Assembly (NCBI GenBank): GCA_000002445.1
Contig: CP000066.1
Coordinates: 640,001 to 704,000 of the forward strand
Length of the DNA: 64,000 bases
Direction of reading: 5' to 3'
Source of the DNA: Trypanosoma brucei
Lineage: Eukaryota
The translations under genes and the position numbers were made by a program. The notes under the pieces were generated by a model, which made no database searches, was not told the DNA's origin, and worked only from the letters and a program-made list of their open reading frames with translations. Positions 1 to 12,275 of this stretch are shown piece by piece. Every line of letters begins with the position of its first letter. The first letter of the stretch is position 1.

Positions 1-906
1 TGTTGGGAGGCGGTTATACGGAGACAATGTCAACGTGCCAAATTCGAGTACGCAGAGATCCACCACATGCCAAAGGTAAAACTATGCGCCATGCTACAAC
101 AATGCATCGAGCTTCAAAACACTTCTCCACTACAAAAATCTCCCCCCAGTTCTGACGCTATGTTTTATTGAGCACAATTTCGTAGATGAGGGCGAGCCCT
201 GGACGTTTATCGCCCACCATCCCACTACCTTATGTAACGTGACGGACAGCAACCGAACAAAAGGGTCGTATCCTTTCGTTTTCTACACATATCACTTTGA
301 ATCCGAGAAGGAGTTCAACAGATGACAAACATAATGCAGTACGTACTAAAACAAAAAACACTTTTTACTTGAATCCCTATATCAACTCACAATCGACAGC
401 ACATATTCGACATTAACTAACTCCATCATTAAAATACACTCCACTCTAACACAGAAACAACCCAATGTGATGCTTAGTTACCATAACAAAGGAATACGCC
501 TCACGTTTCACAAACATGGGTACGAAGTCATTCCACCCTAGTACACACATTTGGTCACCTCACATTAATAACCTGTTTCTTAAACGCGTAAGGCGTTGTT
601 TAAATTTCACGTTGTCATATAATATAATATTCCATACATAATTCTGCCTGCAGAGTCCACACCATATCGACAGCTGCCTTCATTTTGTTTCAGTGCAAAC
701 GCCTAAACCCCTTCTAAAGGAGTCTGGCGTAGTATAAAGATATACAATGCTACAAATACCAGAGCAGCTAGATTGAAACACAGGTGGTGAGGAACTATCG
801 GCATCTGGGGATGAATGACTTCATTCAAATGGGCATGCACGAATGCAGCACCTTTGAAGGGACAAAAACTCGTTTTAGAAAGAAAACTGACAAATAATTT
901 GTACTC

Positions 907-1563
907 TCAGAGAAATAGGAGCAACACTGGAAAAAAAACCTGGTAGATAGGTGGTTGCAGCGGCTGAGATTTGCTTTTCTGCTGTTCCGGGGGGCGAACA
1001 GAGGAAGTTCCGTTACGTTCGCTGCCAAAAGTGGAGGAGACAGTACCTTTATTTTCGGATTTGAGGTGGCCGTCATCCTTAGAGGGTGAACCATTTTCCT
1101 CCTTTTTAGGGGTCGCAGAAACCGAACTACCATTTCTCACCGGCTCTTCAGAAAGCACAGGGCCGTACTCGGATGATGGAGGTGCCTCACCTTTGTTAGA
1201 GGCCTCGTCGCGACTTGAGTCTCCACCCGCTTCCACAACTGGTGAAGCGACTTCGGGTGTTGAGAGCCCAAGGAACTCACTAACCTTTGCGGTTACACAT
1301 CTGTGCGGTGAAAAGCAGGTCAATCCCCCGCCGCAAACGGTACAGTTCCCCTCTGCAGGTGCGCCCGAAGGAACCCTGTGTGCCAGGGTGCAGTTTTTCT
1401 GTGCATACGTCATGAGACGATTCTCCTCGTTTCTAGTTATACGGCTTTCAATTCCCAATACTTCCGTGCACTTACCCACATATCCAATTCTTCCCTCCCA
1501 TACATTCTCACACATGGCCACACGTTGAACGAAACCGAACAGTATTATTGGTAGGCACAGCAT
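907..1563 (-). CDS. Array copy 1 (218 aa): predicted secreted, possibly GPI-anchored, small surface protein. It has a signal peptide, a ~90-aa Cys-rich head, an acidic Ser/Glu/Pro/Gly-rich stalk and a hydrophobic C-terminus.
   Basis: True ATG (+ strand 'cat' at 1561-1563). Hydrophobic N-terminus MLCLPIILFGFVQRVA. Cys framework includes NCTVCGGGLTC..RC. Several NxS/T sequons (NCT x2, NGS x2, NGT). The C-terminus ends ...QPPIYQVFFPVLLLFL. A pyrimidine tract and AGs lie just 5' on the coding strand (+ 1603-1622). Confidence 0.8.
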   Translation of the reverse strand: MLCLPIILFGFVQRVAMCENVWEGRIGYVGKCTEVLGIESRITRNEENRLMTYAQKNCTLAHRVPSGAPAEGNCTVCGGGLTCFSPHRCVTAKVSEFLGLSTPEVASPVVEAGGDSSRDEASNKGEAPPSSEYGPVLSEEPVRNGSSVSATPKKEENGSPSKDDGHLKSENKGTVSSTFGSERNGTSSVRPPEQQKSKSQPLQPPIYQVFFPVLLLFL

Positions 1564-2420
1564 TTCAGAATTCTACACTGCCTGAGTTGCTCCAACACCA
1601 GCGCAAAGAAAAATAATAAACACCTCATACATAACATATATCATACAGTTATGTGTGTTTATACTTTGTTTCAAAATATATCGTATTGAATACAAATAGC
1701 AGACACATGACACGAAAAAATCCCATTAAGCGTTAACATGACATAAAATACCCTATTCAGATGCAACCGAACAAAAGGGTCGTATCCTTTCATTTTCTAC
1801 GCATATCACTTTTGATCCAAGATACGGTTAAACAGGTGACAAACATAATGCAGTACGTACTAAAACAAAAAACACTTTTTACTTGAATCCCTATATCAAC
1901 TCACAATCGACAACACATATTCGACATTAACTAACTCCATCATTAAAATACACTCCACTCTAACACAGAAACAACCCAATGTGATGCTTAGTTACCATAA
2001 CAAAGGAATACGCCTCACGTTTCACAAACATGGGTACGAAGTCATTCCACCCTAGTACACACATTTGGTCACCTCACATTAATAACCTGTTTCTTAAACG
2101 CGTAAGGCGTTGTTTAAATTTCACGTTGTCATATAATATAATATTCCATACATAATTCTGCCTGCAGAGTCCACACCATATCGACAGCTGCCTTCATCTT
2201 ACTTCCAAACAAACGCCTAAAACTCTTCTAAAGGAGTCTGGCGTAGCATAAAGATATACAATGACGCAAACACCAAAGAAGCTAGATTGAAACACAGGTG
2301 GGGAGGAACTATCGGCATCTGGGGATGAATGACTTCATTCAAATGGGCATGCACGAATGCAGCACCTTTGAAGGGACAAAAACTCGTTTTAGAAAGAAAA
2401 CTGACAAATAATTTGTACTC

Positions 2421-3077
2421 TCAGAGAAATAGGAGCAACACTGAGGAAAACACCTGGTAGATAGGTGGTTGCAGCGGCTGAGATTTGCTTGTCTGCTGTT
2501 CCGGGGGGCGAACAGAGGAAGTTCCGTTACGTTCGCTGCCAAAAGTGGAGGAGACAGTACCTTTATTTTCGGATTTGAGGTGGCCGTCATCCTTAGAGGG
2601 TGAACCATTTTCCTCCTTTTTAGGGGTCGCAGAAACCGAACTACCATTTCTCACCGGCTCTTCAGAAAGCACAGGGCCGTACTCGGATGATGGAGGTGCC
2701 TCACCTTTGTTAGAGGCATCGTCGCGACTTGAGTCTCCACCCGCTTCCACAACTGGTGAAGCGACTTCGGGTGTTGAGAGCCCAAGGAACTCACTAACCT
2801 TTGCGGTTACACATCTGTGCGGTGAAAAGCAGGTCAATCCCCCGCCGCAAACGGTACAGTTCCCCTCTGCAGGTGCGCCCGAAGGAACCCTGTGTGCCAG
2901 GGTGCAGTTTTTCTGTGCATACGTCATGAGACGATTCTCCTCGTTTCTAGTTATACGGCTTTCAATTCCCAATACTTCCGTGCACTTACCCACATATCCA
3001 ATTCTTCCCTCCCATACATTCTCACACATGGCCACACGTTGAACGAAACCGAACAGTATTATTGGTAGGCACAGCAT
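2421..3077 (-). CDS. Array copy 2 (218 aa): same family, variant type B (..RDDASN.., ..QQTSKS.., ..VFSSVLLLFL).
   Basis: ATG at 3077. Identical architecture to copy 1, from which it differs at 4 residues. Confidence 0.8.
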   Translation of the reverse strand: MLCLPIILFGFVQRVAMCENVWEGRIGYVGKCTEVLGIESRITRNEENRLMTYAQKNCTLAHRVPSGAPAEGNCTVCGGGLTCFSPHRCVTAKVSEFLGLSTPEVASPVVEAGGDSSRDDASNKGEAPPSSEYGPVLSEEPVRNGSSVSATPKKEENGSPSKDDGHLKSENKGTVSSTFGSERNGTSSVRPPEQQTSKSQPLQPPIYQVFSSVLLLFL

Positions 3078-3934
3078 TTCAGAATTCTACACTGCCTGAG
3101 TTGCTCCAACACCAGCGCAAAGAAAAATAATAAACACCTCATACATAACATATATCATACAGTTATGTGTGTTTATACTTTGTTTCAAAATATATCGTAT
3201 TGAATACAAATAGCAGACACATGACACGAAAAAATCCCATTAAGCGTTAACATGACATAAAATACCCTATTCAGATGCAACCGAACAAAAGGGTCGTATC
3301 CTTTCATTTTCTACGCATATCACTTTTGATCCAAGATACGGTTAAACAGGTGACAAACATAATGCAGTACGTACTAAAACAAAAAACACTTTTTACTTGA
3401 ATCCCTATATCAACTCACAATCGACAACACATATTCGACATTAACTAACTCCATCATTAAAATACACTCCACTCTAACACAGAAACAACCCAATGTGATG
3501 CTTAGTTACCATAACAAAGGAATACGCCTCACGTTTCACAAACATGGGTACGAAGTCATTCCACCCTAGTACACACATTTGGTCACCTCACATTAATAAC
3601 CTGTTTCTTAAACGCGTAAGGCGTTGTTTAAATTTCACGTTGTCATATAATATAATATTCCATACATAATTCTGCCTGCAGAGTCCACACCATATCGACA
3701 GCTGCCTTCATCTTACTTCCAAACAAACGCCTAAAACTCTTCTAAAGGAGTCTGGCGTAGCATAAAGATATACAATGACGCAAACACCAAAGAAGCTAGA
3801 TTGAAACACAGGTGGGGAGGAACTATCGGCATCTGGGGATGAATGACTTCATTCAAATGGGCATGCACGAATGCAGCACCTTTGAAGGGACAAAAACTCG
3901 TTTTAGAAAGAAAACTGACAAATAATTTGTACTC

Positions 3935-4591
3935 TCAGAGAAATAGGAGCAACACTGAGGAAAACACCTGGTAGATAGGTGGTTGCAGCGGCTGAGATTT
4001 GCTTGTCTGCTGTTCCGGGGGGCGAACAGAGGAAGTTCCGTTACGTTCGCTGCCAAAAGTGGAGGAGACAGTACCTTTATTTTCGGATTTGAGGTGGCCG
4101 TCATCCTTAGAGGGTGAACCATTTTCCTCCTTTTTAGGGGTCGCAGAAACCGAACTACCATTTCTCACCGGCTCTTCAGAAAGCACAGGGCCGTACTCGG
4201 ATGATGGAGGTGCCTCACCTTTGTTAGAGGCATCGTCGCGACTTGAGTCTCCACCCGCTTCCACAACTGGTGAAGCGACTTCGGGTGTTGAGAGCCCAAG
4301 GAACTCACTAACCTTTGCGGTTACACATCTGTGCGGTGAAAAGCAGGTCAATCCCCCGCCACAAACGGTACAGTTCCCCTCTGCAGGTGCGCCCGAAGGA
4401 ACCCTGTGTGCCAGGGTGCAGTTTTTCTGTGCATACGTCATGAGACGATTCTCCTCGTTTCTAGTTATACGGCTTTCAATTCCCAATACTTCCGTGCACT
4501 TACCCACATATCCAATTCTTCCCTCCCATACATTCTCACACATGGCCACACGTTGAACGAAACCGAACAGTATTATTGGTAGGCACAGCAT
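3935..4591 (-). CDS. Array copy 3 (218 aa): same family, variant type B.
   Basis: ATG at 4591. The protein is identical to copy 2. One synonymous difference was seen (gccAcaaacgg at ~4360 versus gccGcaaacgg at ~2846), which shows the copies are distinct loci. Confidence 0.8.
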   Translation of the reverse strand: MLCLPIILFGFVQRVAMCENVWEGRIGYVGKCTEVLGIESRITRNEENRLMTYAQKNCTLAHRVPSGAPAEGNCTVCGGGLTCFSPHRCVTAKVSEFLGLSTPEVASPVVEAGGDSSRDDASNKGEAPPSSEYGPVLSEEPVRNGSSVSATPKKEENGSPSKDDGHLKSENKGTVSSTFGSERNGTSSVRPPEQQTSKSQPLQPPIYQVFSSVLLLFL

Positions 4592-5448
4592 TTCAGAATT
4601 CTACACTGCCTGAGTTGCTCCAACACCAGCGCAAAGAAAAATAATAAACACCTCATACATAACATATATCATACAGTTATGTGTGTTTATACTTTGTTTC
4701 AAAATATATCGTATTGAATACAAATAGCAGACACATGACACGAAAAAATCCCATTAAGCGTTAACATGACATAAAATACCCTATTCAGATGCAACCGAAC
4801 AAAAGGGTCGTATCCTTTCGTTTTCTACACATATCACTTTTGATCCAAGATACGGTTAAACAGGTGACAAACATAATGCAGTACGTACTAAAACAAAAAA
4901 CACTTTTTACTTGAATCCCTATATCAACTCACAATCGACAACACATATTCGACATTAACTAACTCCATCATTAAAATACACTCCACTCTAACACAGCAAC
5001 AACCCAATGTGATGCTTAGTTACCATAACAAAGGAATACGCCTCACGTTTCACAAACATGGGTACGAAGTCATTCCACCCTAGTACACACATTTGGTCAC
5101 CTCACATTAATAACCTGTTTCTTAAACGCGTAAGGCGTTGTTTAAATTTCACGTTGTCATATAATATAATATTCCATACATAATTCTGCCTGCAGAGTCC
5201 ACACCATATCGACAGCTGCCTTCATCTTACTTCCAAACAAACGCCTAAAACTCTTCTAAAGGAGTCTGGCGTAGCATAAAGATATACAATGACGCAAACA
5301 CCAAAGAAGCTAGATTGAAACACAGGTGGGGAGGAACTATCGGCATCTGGGGATGAATGACTTCATTCAAATGGGCATGCACGAATGCAGCACCTTTGAA
5401 GGGACAAAAACTCGTTTTAGAAAGAAAACTGACAAATAATTTGTACTC

Positions 5449-6123
5449 TCAGAGAAATAGGAGCAACACTGGAAAAAAAACCTGGTAGATAGGTGGTTGC
5501 AGCGGCTGAGATTTGCTTTTCTGCTGTTCCGGGGGGCGAACAGAGGAAGTTCCGTTACGTTCGCTGCCAAAAGTGGAGGAGACAGTACCTTTATTTTCGG
5601 ATTTGAGGTGGCCGTCATCCTTAGAGGGTGAACCATTTTCCTCCTTTTTAGGGGTCGCAGAAACCGAACTACCATTTCTCACCGGCTCTTCAGAAAGCAC
5701 AGGGCCGTACTCGGATGATGGAGGTGCCTCACCTTTGTTAGAGGCCTCGTCGCGACTTGAGTCTCCACCCGCTTCCACAACTGGTGAAGCGACTGCGGGT
5801 GTTGGGAGCCCAAGGAACTCACTAACCTTTGCAGTGACACATCTATAATTGAAAGGACAACGCAAGGTTCCCCCGCCACAAACGGTACAGTTCCCGTCAG
5901 TGGTTGCGCCAGATGGTACGCTTCGGATGGGAGTGCAGTTCGCTTCCGCATACTTCACGAGACGATTCTCTTCTGCTACGCCCGCTGGAGCCTTAATTTT
6001 CAGCAAATCCGTACACATATCCACAACTCCAACTCGCGTTCCCCATCCCTTCCCATAAGTAGCAACAATTTGAACCAATCCCGCGAACAGGGTTAATACA
6101 CAGACACACACAGGTCTCGTCAT
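5449..6123 (-). CDS. Array copy 4, promoter-proximal (224 aa from the ATG at 6123): same family with a diverged signal peptide and Cys-rich head, and a stalk and tail identical to copy 1.
   Basis: The track ORF (5449..6210) starts at TTG. In-frame ATGs are at 6204 and 6123. The ATG at 6123 aligns with the other copies (MTRPVCVCVLTLFAGLVQIVA versus MLCLPIILFGFVQRVA). It also sits just after a coding-strand pyrimidine tract and AGs (gtttttttgcttttattgttatgttagtaaaagatta-ATG). Conserved blocks include EENRL, NCT, VPSGA, GNCTVCGGG and RCVTAKVSEFLGL. Confidence 0.75.
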   Translation of the reverse strand: MTRPVCVCVLTLFAGLVQIVATYGKGWGTRVGVVDMCTDLLKIKAPAGVAEENRLVKYAEANCTPIRSVPSGATTDGNCTVCGGGTLRCPFNYRCVTAKVSEFLGLPTPAVASPVVEAGGDSSRDEASNKGEAPPSSEYGPVLSEEPVRNGSSVSATPKKEENGSPSKDDGHLKSENKGTVSSTFGSERNGTSSVRPPEQQKSKSQPLQPPIYQVFFPVLLLFL

Positions 6124-7031
6124 TAATCTTTTACTAACATAACAATAAAAGCAAAAAAACTTCTTTGCAGAGCAATTAACTCGCTTTCTCTCATGTTTAA
6201 ACATTGTCAAGTTACCTTTTGTTTAATATACAGAGCCAGTTAACCACTCAGAAAACAACCAGTGAGTATAATCAGCGTCCACAATACTTATCCGTATGGG
6301 AAGAAATGAAATATGAAGTTACGTCTTTTAAAATCTTTATCAAAAGCAGCAGCCAAGCGACCGGAGACTCACATTTATCAAGTGCGAGTAGGGGGCATCT
6401 GTGGTTCAATAACATAAAAACACATGCAGTAACAAGTTTTCGCAGATAAATATTATGGAGTACCACCTATATAAGTCCAAGTCCACACAAAAAAAACCCA
6501 AGCAAAAGCAAATACACAGTAAAGAAATAATTACAAACACATTTGATAGCACCGTCTGTTGATAGCAAATACTTAAACAGCGAAGAAGAAAGACGTTCAA
6601 AGCATTACAAAACACATCGTGGAGCAGTTCTGTAGAAACGATTACAAATGGGAAATAACCAACTCCCACGAAACAGTACATCACTGTAGCCAGTCCATCA
6701 AGAAAAATTGGCAGCGTCTCGGCGCGTGATTCAACTCTTTTCGAACGCTAGACAGCATCCACAACACTAAGCAGTTAGGTACAAATATAGATCACTACAT
6801 AGCAAAAGCAAAATGCGGTAAGTACCGCAAAGGGGTCCCCCATCCTTACGCTGTTCTATTATTTATTTCGCTTCTTCCACTTTATTGCAGTCTACAATTA
6901 TAGGCGCTTTCTCCCATCATATATTAAAGCATAATAGCGCGAGAAAGAACAAAAGGTCATAGATTAACGTATCGAGCTAGTGTGAGGGGTGATGCTCTGA
7001 GGCAGTATTTGTATCTAGTTTAGTGACGGAT

Positions 7032-7949
7032 TTATCCGGTGATAAAGCATACAATTGCGACAAGGAGGTTCTGTATCGCTCCATATCTCACGTTGTTTCC
7101 TTTTTTGTTTTCTGGTTTGCGGTCGATTCTTCCTGTGTTTGATACAATTCCTGCACCTGCTGCAACTGTATCATCCCGTCCGCGCACTGGTTCCTCCCTT
7201 CCTGGGTCTGCATCCTGTTTCCCATTGGTCGTCGTGCCATCTTCTGCAGCATCGCGCTGGTGATCATTCACTGTACCTTTTTCTGGTGAAGATTCCCCTC
7301 GAGGGTGAGTATGCTTCCCTCCCTGAGTTGCTCCTCCCTTTTCTGGTTCCTTTCGGGTCAAGCCCTCACCTCCAGCTCCGTCCTTTTTCCCCGAAGCTCC
7401 CCGCTTCTCCCCAGCAGTTCCCCGCTTTTCCCCCGGACTTTGCTGATCTTCCTTTGGAGTTTCCTCACCTTCCCCCGAAGCTTCCTGCTCCTCCCCCTCA
7501 CTTTTGGGAGCACTGCTCGCTGTCTCTTCGTCGTCCGAACCGCTACCCTTAGTTGTGTCTGAGGGTCCCTGTTCAGACGCGGCAGACTGCTCTACCGTCT
7601 CTTCTGTAGGGACCTGTTGTGTTATACTCCGCCAGTCGGAGTCGGAGCATGTTGTGGCATTGAGTGAATCCTCGCTTGAGTCCTCGTCCGTGCAATTAAG
7701 GGTGTGCAGCCGGTGGCCGTTTCCATGAAAAATGGCGTACACTTTGAGCTTCAGCTTGAAATATCCCTGTGGTTGTCCCTTTCCGATCAGAAGCACAGGA
7801 GTGTTTGTGCAGTTGGCAGGGTGCCACTTGCCCTTCCATCTGCACAGCGCCCCTTCCGCTTCATTATGCAGACAGTCACACCTGAAAGTCACTGCTGAAG
7901 ATCCCAAAACTACACAACTTGCTAGAAACAACGCTGTAAATGTCAACAT
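7032..7949 (-). CDS. 305-aa predicted surface/secreted acidic protein with a signal peptide, a Cys-containing N-terminal domain, a long Glu/Gly/Lys/Ser/Asp-rich low-complexity region and a hydrophobic C-terminus (GPI-signal-like).
   Basis: True ATG (7947-7949). N-terminus MLTFTALFLASCVVLGSSA. Six Cys fall within the first ~100 mature residues. A short internal repeat is present (GEKRGTAGEKRGASGKKDG). C-terminus ...YGAIQNLLVAIVCFITG. A pyrimidine tract and AGs lie 5' on the coding strand (~7965-8000). Confidence 0.75.
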   Translation of the reverse strand: MLTFTALFLASCVVLGSSAVTFRCDCLHNEAEGALCRWKGKWHPANCTNTPVLLIGKGQPQGYFKLKLKVYAIFHGNGHRLHTLNCTDEDSSEDSLNATTCSDSDWRSITQQVPTEETVEQSAASEQGPSDTTKGSGSDDEETASSAPKSEGEEQEASGEGEETPKEDQQSPGEKRGTAGEKRGASGKKDGAGGEGLTRKEPEKGGATQGGKHTHPRGESSPEKGTVNDHQRDAAEDGTTTNGKQDADPGREEPVRGRDDTVAAGAGIVSNTGRIDRKPENKKGNNVRYGAIQNLLVAIVCFITG

Positions 7950-10900
7950 AGAGTGTTAGCTGCCTGTCCTCTACTTGTAAAAATCACTGAAAAAGGGATG
8001 TACTCGGTAAACACAGGGTCCACACAAACGCAAACACACGTTCCTAACAGCTTTCAATTGCACTTACACTCCCCGTTACTCCAGCAGGTTCCACTGGTCG
8101 TCAAATTTAGCAGTAAATTTATTCCTCACGAAGATAAGCTATCACCAATCCACTAATAGGCAATCGGTCACCCTTCTGGTCGACTTCTGTAGACTTACTA
8201 CCCCATAATTAGTTGAAGTTTTTGGGTAAGGCTACCTGCGCCTGAAGTTTTAGAGACCCCGGGAATTTCTAAGTGCATGCGCGAGTTGCATTGCAGCCAC
8301 ACAACCATATATGCCCCGGCGTGCCTGTAAAAAAGACAAACACGTAGTTACTTAACAAGCAGATGTGCTCGCGCACGAATGTCTCCCAGTAAAAACACAC
8401 ACAAAGGTATAACGTGAAACAACAATTCCAAGCTAACTTAGCGGATATGTATTAAGACAAAATAATTAAAGCAGTCATGGTGGAAAGAACTTGAAATATG
8501 GAACTTAAGGGAACACCGTTTCCCCCTTTTTTCTTAAAGATAAACGGTCTGACTTTCCTATTTATCTTCGTTACCGGTTACGTCATTGTCACTCTGAAGC
8601 TTTGTTTCGATTCTGCTTCCCGCTACAACGCCGGCTGTAGCAATAAACCGGCCTCCTCTTAGGCATGCTTGAGCGCTTTTCATTCCCGCTTTTGTTATTC
8701 GCCAAGAAGTGGCTTGACAGGTGTTGGAGTTTCTTTGATCCACCTCAAACGCGGGGTTTCCTTTTTTTTATTCCCTCCAAAAATACGAAGGGGCAACTCG
8801 CCTAGCGGTGATTCCACCCACAAAAGAGAAAGCACACACAACGTAAGTTAGCGTGATGAATAGGGTGTACAAAGTTAATTATACCCTTTTTCCACCTTAC
8901 GTTGCAAAGGTCAGGCATGTCAGTTAGTTAATATATTTTTCACCACCGTCGGAAAGTAATTAAGTACCACTTTAGGCAATCTTTCCCTCTATGTCCGGGG
9001 ATCAATACGACCTTTCACATCTCTCCTCGTCAACACCTTCCCCCTACTGCGCTTTAGTGAGAACAGCACCAACTCAGGTGAATCAACGAAGTAAATACCA
9101 ACAACTATTGGGGACTTGGAAATGTACCTACCTCCGTGAGCGTTACCGATCCTTCAAATCACTGGGTGTTTTTTTTTAAAAAGAGCGGCTGGAACCCATG
9201 GCCCCTCATGTCACCACAAAGCCGAATCTCAGTACTTGTGCGCCCTCATTCACACGTTTAGTTGTTATCATATTAACAGGTTCCAATAAGATGGTACCTT
9301 TCGCGTTACTCTAGGCCCGAAATCGGTTGTGGAATCATTCAGGACCTACCGCCACCGGTGGGATACCTTTCCCGACTCCAAACTTCAGGTTGCAAACTCT
9401 CCGTACCTGCAGAAAGTAGCAGCGCCCCGATAGAAAGTTAGGTTCCATCACCTCTTATCTTTAAATTTGTTTTTATTCACATGCGACGGAGTTTAACTGA
9501 CGAGGCACCAACCCATTCCTTTGTAACTTCAGGGATGATGCCGCTTTCGGCCGCCCTCTACACGACAACCTCTAATTATCCAGAGTAGCACCAATAACAT
9601 ATGCTGTTACCATTTAAAAGAGCATTCAGCATGGATGACTTCCCCCCGATGTCACTAATAATTGAGTAACGCGGTTCCGGAAGTGTTGTGTTACAACTTA
9701 TTCTCTTAGGATGGAACAAACTCCTTCGTGGTAGCACACCTTAGCGGCATCGTGAGATATTCACCACAGCACCAAGTGGGGGAGATTGATTTAGGCGCAT
9801 GAAGTATGGATGTCACTGTGCGGGTTGTACTGTTCAAAAGAGTGGGTTGTCGGCAAAAGGTGTTACAAGCCACACGATGTTACACGAGTAGACGGAAATC
9901 TAATGAGGTGCGTTCAGCTGTTGTGCGCACGTTCGGACAAGAATACGCCAAAGTGAGGCAATAATGTGCACGTGAAGACGGCACTAACGCGTAGATCGTT
10001 TGCCACTTGTATATCATATTTCCCCAGGAGTCCAGCCCAAAGTATTCGTACCGGCTGAAGGCGCACATTAATGAATTTCAACGGATGCATCAACCACAGA
10101 ACTTAGAGAAGGGCTCCGCTACCACTGGTAAATACTAAAGGAGACATTGCCCCTCTCCCAAAGACATAAAACCGTTGCCGAAGGCGCCTCAGAGAATTGC
10201 GATTATAGAGGGAGTAAGCCGGCATGCAACACGTTGGCACTCGCGCGGCTCTCGCAAAGAGTATTTACATTTTATGTGCAATGCAAACTCCTCTCCGTGC
10301 GGATACGCCTTTCACCGTCGACACCATTGGCACTGAGACTTTAGCAGTAATTGTAGAAATGTATAAGCCCCCGTATGTTGCACTTTTATTTATTGACAAT
10401 GTGATACTTCACGCAATCCCGTGCCTGCCCTCCCCATCGTTTTGTTCATTCCGTTTTTAAGCCATAACTGCGGGGCTGTGGTGACAAGGTTCAAAGCGAC
10501 CACCAATAGGAGAGGAAAGATATATACATACATATATATCATCAGGCTTCTTTTGGCCCGAATGCGCCAAGAAACTATTGAGTGTTTCCCCTCGCGTGGC
10601 AAAACCACTTCATGGGGCGATAAACTCCCGAGCTCACTCACGGGCAAAACATTCCAGTAGGAACTTGTAAAATGTGGAATGGAGGAGGAATGACTAGCAA
10701 CCGAGCGGGAAGTTTTTGGCACACTGCTTATTCCCAGCACCATGACCGCTACCGATGGCATTGGACTCACCTTGTTCTTTTACCCCAAAGAACTTTAGCA
10801 GGTACCGTACTGCTTTTATGTTTTAACACAACCGTCGTTCCCCCTATAAACTCCGTTTACCTTCACTCCTTCCGCAGGGAAGCGCAAACGAGCAAATAAC

Positions 10901-11149: not shown

Positions 11150-12275
11150 GCATCTTAGTCTACCACTGAACCCGCGGCAACTTGTTCTGACAAAAACTGA
11201 CCGTGGTGTGTTTCCCGCCATTTATTAGGGGAAAATGTCACGCGAAACCAAAGTAAAGAGGGCAGAAATAACTACTCACCAACCTCTGACCTGCTGAAAA
11301 ATGGTGAGGGACAGAGAATGTAGTTGGATTACTCAGCCAGGGATAACTTGTATTTGTGCTCGCGTCATGTGTTTCAGACTAGAGGTGTCATTTGCACAGA
11401 TAGATTCACATCATTGTTCCAACAGAAAGAGTAAATAAGGGGTGACGAATGATAGGGTGCGAAGGAAGGAATAAATAACTCAGAACCAAACGAAGTATAA
11501 GTTTCGTCAAGACATTTCGTACGACAAGAGTGAAACGTTATAGTCATCAGTGGCTTCATTTGTGGTAGCGGTGGTGCCGATCACTTGTGAGCCCGCCGGT
11601 AGGATGAAGGGTCTTCCACTGAACAATAACATGGCGGCGCGCTTTTCCACACCCAACTTTGTTAGGTCACACACACACGAAACAAATCCAACTGAATGTT
11701 CCATTGCTAAGGGTACAGTAGCAAAATGGGAGGAAATAAGTGCATAATCTGCTGAAGCGCACTACCAGTCCCTGGAATGAAGGTGATTACAGATAACTAA
11801 CTTCAACATACTCGAGCATTCTTTCAGCCATTCGAGCGGCCAATAAGGGAACCGTTGCACTTCCTTCCTTTCCTCCTCCTTCCCCCTATAAATATCGCAC
11901 TGGTAGCGCCCACGGGGATGCCTCACCGTCCCTAGGCGCTGCGGCGTCCCATGAACAATATCATGAACGGTTAAACAAAAACAGAAGTAAAAAAGTGAAC
12001 TTTTTGAATACTGGTGGAGGAAGAGGAAATAACAAGTATTTATGCACGACACAAAAATGATATTGGTACAAGGTTGAAAGCAAAGTGCTTTGGAGACCCA
12101 TCGTTGGGGCGAGGAATTTCTCACCACTCCCATTCAATGTGCACGAATAAACTCCCGCCTGCTCCACACCTTTGTACGCTCATTATCTCGTTCACCTTCT
12201 CTCACATCATCATCATTCCTTTATCATCTCCCTTCATTTATGCTTGCACGACAGCAGAGGTGTCATCCCGCAGAG

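What the first reader, a model, noticed from the sequence alone, without database searches (positions are those of the whole stretch)
5794..6123. Promoter-proximal copy carries a swapped, diverged head domain with a knife-edge identity boundary
Copy 4 is nucleotide-identical to copy 1 from the stop codon up to ~5793. Identity then drops abruptly across the Cys-rich head and signal peptide. Only the Cys framework and a few blocks persist (EENRL, VPSGA, GNCTVCGGG, RCVTAKVSEFLGL).

A conserved stalk and anchor with a variable exposed head is the pattern expected for a host- or vector-facing domain under diversifying selection, or for a domain swap from a paralogue elsewhere in the genome.
Basis: partly seen in the sequence, partly recalled or inferred. 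Interest (0 to 1): 0.5.

Follow-up and report, generated by a model that had tools for sequence, protein, structure and literature searches.

The report
Gene-conversion boundary in a trypanosome surface-gene array
The sharp identity break is real, but it marks where gene conversion has overwritten the tail of an old, conserved paralogue at the edge of a Trypanosoma brucei surface-protein gene array, which is an ordinary and already published kind of mosaic.

Summary
The window is T. brucei TREU927 chromosome 3:640001-704000. The four tandem genes are Tb927.3.2550-2580. They belong to a T. brucei-only family of putative GPI-anchored proteins that are enriched in bloodstream forms.

Copy 4 equals copy 1 over exactly 464 nt (5331-5794). 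Identity is then 92% over 5795-5844 and 60% over 5845-6123. The best breakpoint is 5844/5845, and none of 2000 permutations matched it.

- The copy-4 head was not swapped in. It sits at the same upstream array position in T. b. gambiense and two T. equiperdum genomes, and is 96-100% identical there.
- The stalk is the part with a different history. All paralogues within a genome share it, yet it differs by 6-7% between strains. This is concerted evolution.
- In gambiense the boundary lies about 50 nt deeper in the head, so it is a conversion-tract end and not a fixed domain edge.
- Head dN/dS is 0.36, the same as the stalk.
- No other locus carries a copy-4-type head.

Jackson 2007 and 2010 already list this array as recombinant. 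Low interest.

The parts
5449..6123 (-). Copy 4, Tb927.3.2580. It is 224 aa from ATG 6123. The GenBank annotation (AAZ10292) starts at ATG 6204 and gives 251 aa. The layout is a signal peptide, a 6-Cys head, a disordered acidic stalk and a hydrophobic GPI-type tail.
   Evidence: ORF and translation. Identity to AAZ10292 and neighbours. Gene name from chromosome coordinates in Jensen 2009 supplementary data.
5845..6123 (-). Diverged 'type A' signal peptide and head, up to the codon before the last Cys. It is 60.5% nt and 48% aa identical to copies 1-3. It is 96-100% identical to the positional orthologues in T. b. gambiense and T. equiperdum.
5795..5844 (-). Shoulder of 92% identity (4 mismatches) encoding RCVTAKVSEFLGLPTPA. 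Three of the four sites keep the type-A state shared with the orthologues. The fourth, at 5805, is unique to TREU927 copy 4.
5331..5794 (-). A 464-nt tract that is 100% identical to copy 1. It covers the stalk, the GPI signal, the stop codon and 118 nt of 3'UTR. It is the most recent gene-conversion tract and is bounded by mismatches at 5330 and 5795. It carries derived states at 5519, 5479 and 5472-5474 that only copies 1 and 4 share.
789..1252 (-). The partner of the 464-nt tract, in copy 1 (Tb927.3.2550).
907..1563 (-). Copy 1, Tb927.3.2550, 218 aa, with a 'type B' head.
2421..3077 (-). Copy 2, Tb927.3.2560, 218 aa, type B. Its whole 1514-nt unit differs from copy 3 at only 2 sites.
3935..4591 (-). 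Copy 3, Tb927.3.2570, 218 aa, type B.
249..5844 (-). The homogenised domain of the array, with a 1514-nt period. Copy 4 takes part only from 5844 downwards, where it is 97.5% identical to copies 2 and 3 over 5452-5844.
6124..7031 (-). Unique 5' flank of copy 4. It has no detectable homology to the inter-copy spacer, so the repeat ends inside the copy-4 CDS.
   Evidence: blastn.

Best explanation
Tb927.3.2580 (copy 4) is an old paralogue at the upstream edge of a four-gene tandem array. The array encodes small, T. brucei-specific, putatively GPI-anchored proteins that are enriched in bloodstream forms.

Its signal peptide and Cys-rich head (type A) diverged long ago from the type-B head of copies 1-3, and purifying selection has kept the A head stable since. 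Everything 3' of the last head cysteine is repeatedly homogenised among all array members by gene conversion or unequal exchange. That region covers the C-terminal helix of the head, the disordered stalk, the GPI signal and about 660 nt of 3' flank.

The exact 5794/5795 edge is the 5' end of the latest such event, a 464-nt tract shared by the two terminal copies 1 and 4. The larger step at 5844/5845 is the limit of the older homogenisation.

The limit most probably sits there for a mechanistic reason. Identity collapses to about 60% beyond it, so strand exchange can neither start nor extend. Each failure to convert lets the head diverge further, which keeps the edge sharp.

Shown: the tract, the breakpoints, orthology of the head, concerted evolution of the tail, and dN/dS. 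Inferred: homology limitation as the cause, the direction of transfer, and surface location.
For: 1. Mosaic genealogy. 5' of the breakpoint, copy 4 matches its T. equiperdum or gambiense orthologue and not copy 1 at 103 or 95 sites, with 0 sites the other way. 3' of it, copy 4 matches copy 1 and not the orthologue at 23 or 25 sites, against 3 the other way. Fisher p is about 1e-22.
2. Concerted evolution. The stalk is 97.4-99.7% identical among paralogues within a genome, but 6-7% diverged between TREU927 and gambiense or equiperdum. The strain-specific substitutions are shared by all copies.
3. The tract is bounded on both sides, at 5330 and 5795, and carries derived variants private to copies 1 and 4.
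4. The boundary moves between genomes. In gambiense and T. b. equiperdum IVM-t1 it lies at the equivalent of 5893/5892, inside the GNCTVCGGG identity island. There identity goes from 58% to 99.3%, so type-B genes carry the type-A loop TLRCPFNYRC.
5. dS is 1.10 in the head and 0.02 in the tail between copies 4 and 1, while omega is similar (0.36 and 0.33). The identity contrast therefore reflects age and not selective regime.
6. The copy-4 5' flank has no homology to the spacer, so copy 4 is the array edge.
7. Published analyses list this array (array 13, Tb927.3.2550) as variable. It has 4 copies in each subspecies, PHI p<0.001 and 4 GARD breakpoints (PMC2854126; PMC1855330).
Against: - The direction of transfer and the mechanism (conversion or unequal crossover) cannot be read from one haplotype.
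- In TREU927 the end of perfect identity lies about 5 residues past the end of the AlphaFold-confident head. Selection against converting the head could also produce this.
- The type-B head differs by 19% between TREU927 and gambiense (dS 0.40). That is far above the flanking divergence of 0-0.5%, so the heads are not simply static.
- Tandem arrays can be mis-assembled. The exact 464-nt identity rests on the single TREU927 reference assembly.
Confidence: 0.75

Rival explanations
1. Selection sets the boundary. The exposed head faces the mammalian host, and two or more head types are kept by diversifying or balancing selection. Conversion tracts that run into the head are purged, while the stalk is free to homogenise.
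For: - Both head types are retained in all four genomes examined.
- There are at least four head variants. The Cys5-Cys6 loop occurs as PFNYR, FSPHR and WGEHR and is shuffled among genes.
- The type-B head is 19% diverged between strains, and a second type-A variant in T. equiperdum OVI is 12% diverged in the head.
- mRNAs are enriched in bloodstream forms.
- The whole locus is 10-20 times more diverged between strains than the adjacent helicase gene.
Against: - Pairwise dN/dS in the head is 0.23-0.43 in every comparison and no higher than in the stalk. No segment has dN clearly above dS.
- The type-A head is 96-100% conserved between subspecies.
- The boundary differs by about 50 nt between genomes, and the last loop has been converted in gambiense. 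That part of the head is therefore not protected.
Confidence: 0.15
2. Assembly artefact. Reads from copy 1 were placed in copy 4 of the TREU927 reference, which created the perfect 464-nt identity and its knife edge.
For: Jackson 2007 warns that low-variation arrays can be assembled as chimaeras (PMC1855330). T. equiperdum OVI shows a collapsed array.
Against: - The unique head anchors reads. The variants private to copies 1 and 4 lie only 275-322 nt past the boundary, which is within one Sanger read.
- The same architecture, a divergent head with a homogenised tail, appears in the independent gambiense assembly and in the T. b. equiperdum IVM-t1 chromosome-scale contig.
- Even against copies 2 and 3 the copy-4 tail is 97.5% identical, so the main step at 5844/5845 would remain.
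Confidence: 0.07
3. Ectopic domain swap. The type-A head was imported into the array from a paralogue elsewhere in the genome.
For: Distant paralogues with the same Cys framework exist on the same chromosome: Tb927.3.600 and Tb927.3.5670.
Against: - Those paralogues are only 28% and 21% identical to copy 1 over their full length.
- No other protein among 1.84 billion representatives matches the profile, which includes the type-A head.
- The head is contiguous with a unique, orthologously conserved 5' flank in four genomes.
Confidence: 0.03

Closest known systems
Partial gene conversion and concerted evolution in T. brucei tandem gene arrays (Jackson 2007, PMC1855330; Jackson et al. 2010, PMC2854126). 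This is their array 13, Tb927.3.2550.
   Same: It is the same locus. Both papers list it as a variable array. Jackson et al. 2010 report significant recombination (PHI p<0.001, 4 GARD breakpoints), one unique isoform in each subspecies and three shared isoforms. The mosaic copies and concerted evolution are the phenomena those papers describe.
   Different: In the passages I read, the papers give array-level statistics only. The following are worked out here: the 464-nt tract, its exact ends, the orthologous stability of the copy-4 head, and the shift of the boundary in gambiense.
Fam5 of the African trypanosome cell-surface phylome (Jackson et al. 2013, PMC3605285, Table S1; example gene Tb927.3.600).
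   Same: The family is T. brucei-specific, with a signal peptide and a predicted GPI anchor, 8 genes, and mRNA enriched in bloodstream forms. Tb927.3.600 hits the profile of this array at E = 4e-11 with the same six-Cys framework.
   Different: I did not see the member list of Fam5, so I infer that the array belongs to it. No function is known for the family.
Edge copies of tandem arrays escaping homogenisation. This is a general feature of concerted evolution, for example in rDNA and satellite arrays, and I cite it from my own knowledge.
   Same: The terminal copy is the diverged one, and the repeat ends inside it.
   Different: Here the diverged part is a functional protein domain under purifying selection and not a decaying repeat end.
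Segmental gene conversion that builds mosaic VSG genes in T. brucei (from my own knowledge).
   Same: Short conversion tracts between diverged paralogues create mosaic surface-protein genes. Tract ends fall in islands of identity.
   Different: These are chromosome-internal genes in an RNA polymerase II polycistron. There is no expression-site switching, no silent archive, and no evidence of antigenic variation.

Membership tests
Gene-conversion mosaic within a tandem array (concerted evolution) | In the affected region, paralogues within a genome are more alike than orthologues between genomes. | tested here: met
   The stalk is 97.4-99.7% identical within a genome and 93% between TREU927 and gambiense or equiperdum. 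Strain-specific substitutions are shared by all copies.
Gene-conversion mosaic within a tandem array (concerted evolution) | A discrete tract bounded on both sides, with conflicting genealogies across the breakpoint. | tested here: met
   The 464-nt tract 5331-5794 is bounded at 5330 and 5795. The triplet test gives Fisher p about 1e-22, and MaxChi was reached by 0 of 2000 permutations.
Gene-conversion mosaic within a tandem array (concerted evolution) | Non-reciprocal transfer is shown directly, with donor and recipient known. | not testable with these tools
   This needs pedigrees, population haplotypes or experimental recombination assays.
Fam5 (T. brucei-specific putative GPI-anchored surface proteins) | Sequence homology to the family example Tb927.3.600. 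| tested here: met
   Profile hit at E = 4.3e-11 over the full length, with six invariant Cys and two NCT sequons aligned.
Fam5 (T. brucei-specific putative GPI-anchored surface proteins) | Restricted to T. brucei. | tested here: met
   Only T. brucei-group proteins were found among 5.8 billion sequence clusters and among 1.84 billion representative proteins. They come from T. b. brucei, T. b. gambiense and T. equiperdum.
Fam5 (T. brucei-specific putative GPI-anchored surface proteins) | An N-terminal signal peptide and a C-terminal GPI-addition signal, with surface location. | tested here: inconclusive
   A hydrophobic N-terminus and a 10-13-residue hydrophobic C-terminus after EQQxSKS are visible in the sequence. 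Table S1 scores the family as SP yes and GPI yes. I ran no predictor, and I found no localisation data.
Surface domain under diversifying selection | dN/dS above 1 in the exposed domain, or clearly higher than in the rest of the protein. | tested here: not met
   Head omega is 0.36 between paralogues and 0.23-0.43 between orthologues. The stalk is 0.3-0.5. The per-segment values are not above 1 in any reliable way. The sample is only pairwise, from 13 sequences.
Ectopic domain swap | A donor locus elsewhere that carries the same head. | tested here: not met
   The exhaustive HMMER search found none.

The most novel reading that the evidence does not exclude
The heads of this bloodstream-stage family may form a small mosaic system in which short cassettes are shuffled among paralogues and alleles and kept as deep polymorphisms by host immune pressure. 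Candidate cassettes are the Cys1-Cys2 segment and the Cys5-Cys6 loop (PFNYR, FSPHR, WGEHR). The tail would be homogenised only for anchoring and mRNA regulation. That would make it a chromosome-internal, non-VSG example of conversion-driven surface variation in T. brucei.
Probability: 0.12. Interest if true: 0.45.

Novelty: already known. Interest (0 to 1): 0.2.

Why it matters
The main value is as a caution. Comparing paralogues within one genome makes the head look variable and the stalk conserved, but comparing strains reverses that picture for copy 4. The contrast reflects when each part was last converted, not how selection acts on it.

The locus is a clean, small example of how conversion tracts stop where homology collapses. 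It also flags an uncharacterised, T. brucei-specific surface family enriched in bloodstream forms, with two stable head types. It does not open a new question.

Tried and rejected
- Pfam found no domain in copies 1 or 4, and only a sub-threshold hit in Tb927.3.2590.
- AlphaFold2 on copy 4 with a 6-sequence alignment gave pLDDT 41, which is unusable. Adding the two distant paralogues gave a usable copy-1 head with block-mean pLDDT 75-89 over residues 31-100. It has two helices, a beta-hairpin and a C-terminal helix, and the stalk is disordered. The two heads therefore could not be compared structurally.
- A word-indexed protein search with the copy-4 head alone returned nothing, not even its own orthologues. 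I treat that as a tool limitation and not as evidence.
- Per-segment dN/dS used 5-25 codons per segment. It is too noisy and dS is saturated, so it gives no support for positive selection.
- The base-J paper's supplements do not list the array genes.
- I rejected the head-swap, ectopic-donor and vector-facing readings. Expression peaks in stumpy bloodstream forms and is lower in procyclic forms; no other tsetse stage was sampled.

Full report
**Identity of the locus.** The 218-aa product of copies 1-3 and the neighbouring 305-aa ORF are exact matches to T. brucei brucei TREU927 chromosome 3 proteins AAZ10289-10293. The last of these is named Tb927.3.2590. Gene start coordinates in the supplementary table of Jensen et al. 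2009 are 643935 for Tb927.3.2570, 645449 for Tb927.3.2580 and 647032 for Tb927.3.2590. They equal window coordinates 3935, 5449 and 7032 plus 640000. The window is therefore chr3:640001-704000, and copies 1-4 are Tb927.3.2550, 2560, 2570 and 2580. All 16 ORFs of at least 220 aa in the window are on the minus strand. The array therefore lies inside one long polycistron, and 'promoter-proximal' only means the 5'-most gene of the array.

**Checking the observation.** The repeat period is 1514 nt.
- Position-by-position comparison shows copy 1 789-1252 equals copy 4 5331-5794 without a single mismatch. That is 464 nt.
- In a codon alignment the next differences are at 5795, 5805, 5833 and 5836. 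From 5845 upwards the differences are dense.
- Identity is 100% over the CDS part of the tract (5452-5794), 92% over 5795-5844 and 60.5% over 5845-6123. Amino-acid identity in that last stretch is 48%.
- A maximum chi-square scan puts the breakpoint at 5844/5845 (chi2 = 169). None of 2000 permutations reached that value.

There are two nested edges: the end of perfect identity at 5794/5795, and the main step at 5844/5845.

**What the two sides of the edge are.** I fetched the orthologous loci from T. b. gambiense DAL972 (L001), T. b. equiperdum IVM-t1 (L002) and T. equiperdum OVI (L003, plus a 1175-nt contig, L004).
- In every genome the upstream-most array gene carries the copy-4-type head (type A), and the following genes carry the copy-1-type head (type B).
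- The TREU927 copy-4 signal peptide and head have 0 differences from OVI over 318 nt. The head alone is 96% identical to gambiense.
- From 5805 downwards copy 4 differs from those orthologues at 24-26 sites (6-7%), and there it equals copy 1.
- Informative-site counts on the two sides of the breakpoint are 103:0 versus 3:23 for OVI and 95:0 versus 3:25 for gambiense. Fisher p is about 1e-22.

So the head is the resident, orthologous part of the gene, and the tail is the part with a foreign genealogy.

**Concerted evolution of the tail.** Within each genome the stalk and anchor region is 97.4-99.7% identical among paralogues. Between TREU927 and the other genomes it is about 93% identical, and the strain-specific substitutions are shared by all copies of a genome. 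A site table of the four TREU927 units against the other genomes shows three things:
- The copy-1/copy-4 tract is bounded on the 3' side at 5330. There copy 4 switches to the 3'UTR haplotype of copies 2 and 3.
- The tract carries derived states at 5519, 5479 and 5472-5474 that are found only in copies 1 and 4.
- The 3'UTR itself exists as two haplotype blocks that are distributed differently among copies and strains.

This is the signature of repeated short conversion or unequal-exchange events. The copy-4 5' flank (6124-7031) has no homology to the inter-copy spacer, so the repeat ends inside the copy-4 coding sequence.

**Is the edge a domain boundary kept by selection?**
- In gambiense and IVM-t1 the step between the type-A and type-B genes lies at the equivalent of window 5893/5892, inside the GNCTVCGGG identity island. 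Identity changes from 58% to 99.3%. Their type-B genes consequently carry the type-A loop TLRCPFNYRC. The edge therefore moves between genomes and falls in islands of identity, as expected for tract ends limited by homology.
- Nei-Gojobori estimates for copy 4 versus copy 1 give dN 0.396, dS 1.10 and omega 0.36 in the head. In the tail they give dN 0.007, dS 0.021 and omega 0.33.
- Orthologue comparisons give omega 0.23-0.43 for heads and 0.3-0.5 for stalks.
- Per-segment estimates show no reliable dN above dS.

The contrast in identity is thus a contrast in coalescence time and not in selective regime.

**Variation between strains.** Between strains the copy-4 head is less diverged (0-4%) than the stalk (6-7%). 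This is the reverse of the 'variable head, conserved stalk' reading. The type-B head, however, differs by 19% between TREU927 and gambiense (dS 0.40). OVI holds a second type-A variant that is 12% diverged in the head and has its own Cys5-Cys6 loop. A scan in 400-nt steps shows the adjacent helicase gene is 99.25-100% identical between strains. Identity falls to 90-96% in the acidic region of Tb927.3.2590 and in the array tail. The locus as a whole is a divergence hot spot, and some role for selection on the heads cannot be excluded.

**Other loci with this head.** An exhaustive profile search of 1.84 billion representative proteins returned only three hits. They were the array's own cluster, Tb927.3.600 (E = 4e-11) and Tb927.3.5670 (E = 5e-10), all from T. 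brucei chromosome 3. These two share the architecture and the six-Cys framework with two NCT sequons, but are only 28% and 21% identical to copy 1. No donor for a head swap exists in the data.

Tb927.3.600 is the example gene of 'Fam5' in the cell-surface phylome. That family is T. brucei-specific, with a signal peptide and GPI signal predicted, and has 8 genes (PMC3605285 Table S1). I infer from homology that the array belongs to Fam5.

**Expression and context.** In Jensen et al. 2009 the probes shared by Tb927.3.2550, 2560 and 2570 read 4653, 7070 and 9998 in cultured, slender and stumpy bloodstream forms. They read 2689 and 642 in procyclic forms. Tb927.3.2580 reads 1430, 1908, 3114, 473 and 414 in the same order. 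Both head types therefore have the same stage profile, enriched in bloodstream forms with a peak in stumpy forms. The roughly 3:1 ratio matches copy number. If the protein is on the surface, it faces the mammalian host more than the tsetse midgut. The upstream neighbour Tb427.03.2590 rose at least 2-fold when base J was removed (PMC4150806).

**Comparison with what is known.** This is array 13 (Tb927.3.2550) of Jackson 2007 and Jackson et al. 2010. The 2010 paper lists 4 copies in each subspecies, three shared and one unique isoform each, PHI p<0.001 and 4 GARD breakpoints. Those papers describe chimaeric copies and concerted evolution in T. brucei tandem arrays. The finding is a correct description of one such breakpoint.

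My own knowledge adds two points, which I did not test here. Edge copies of tandem arrays commonly escape homogenisation. In T. brucei, recombination efficiency falls steeply with sequence divergence under mismatch-repair control.

**Verdict.** The kind of feature is already known. Interest is low (0.2).

Noticed in passing
window 7032-7949 (-), especially 7201-7600: Tb927.3.2590 is a second T. brucei-specific ORF with a Cys-rich N-terminus, an acidic low-complexity region and a hydrophobic tail. Its acidic region is only 90.8% identical to gambiense and IVM-t1, while the helicase gene upstream is 99.5-100% identical. It contains a 21-nt tandem repeat at 7428-7477. Its mRNA is enriched in bloodstream forms, and it rose at least 2-fold on loss of base J in strain 427 (PMC4150806).
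   Followed up: partly
window 6124-6210 (-): The deposited annotation of Tb927.3.2580 starts at ATG 6204 (251 aa). That places 27 residues in front of the signal peptide. A polypyrimidine tract (about 6136-6159) followed by AG dinucleotides at 6135/6134 and 6129/6128 lies between the two ATGs. Trans-splicing may therefore leave only ATG 6123 (224 aa, as annotated in T. equiperdum OVI). I had no RNA data to check this.
   Followed up: partly
window 684-788 (copy 1), with equivalents 2198-2302, 3712-3816 and 5226-5330: The 3'UTR occurs as two haplotype blocks that differ at about 17 sites. TREU927 copy 1 carries the block found in all gambiense and IVM-t1 units. TREU927 copies 2-4 carry a block partly shared with T. 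equiperdum OVI. Mosaicism therefore extends into the UTRs and across strains.
   Followed up: partly
L004:291-962 (T. equiperdum OVI, 1175-nt contig): This is a second copy-4-like gene with the copy-4-type 5' flank. It is 12% diverged in the head from the OVI and TREU927 copy 4, and it has a distinct Cys5-Cys6 loop (WGEHR). It is either a very divergent allele of copy 4 or an unassembled extra paralogue.
   Followed up: partly
L003:10001-13272 (T. equiperdum OVI): The OVI assembly collapses the array to a single gene, joining the copy-4 head directly to the downstream flank. Its 'copy 4' tail may therefore be a consensus of several copies. IVM-t1 (L002) shows three array genes and not four.
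   Followed up: no
L001:17365-18492, which lies beyond the left end of the window: A VSG-related gene with a VSG_B domain lies immediately downstream of the array. By position it should be the Tb927.3.2540 orthologue, which Jensen 2009 calls VR8. By its gene number, the distant paralogue Tb927.3.5670 should sit next to another VSG-related gene, Tb927.3.5680 (listed as VSG-related in PMC2771046). The family may be linked to chromosome-internal VSG-related genes.
   Followed up: no
window 9601-10000 and 11601-12000: These are local dips in inter-strain identity within otherwise near-identical intergenic sequence. Identity is 93% to OVI at 9601-10000 and 96% to gambiense at 11601-12000, the latter with indels.
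   Followed up: no
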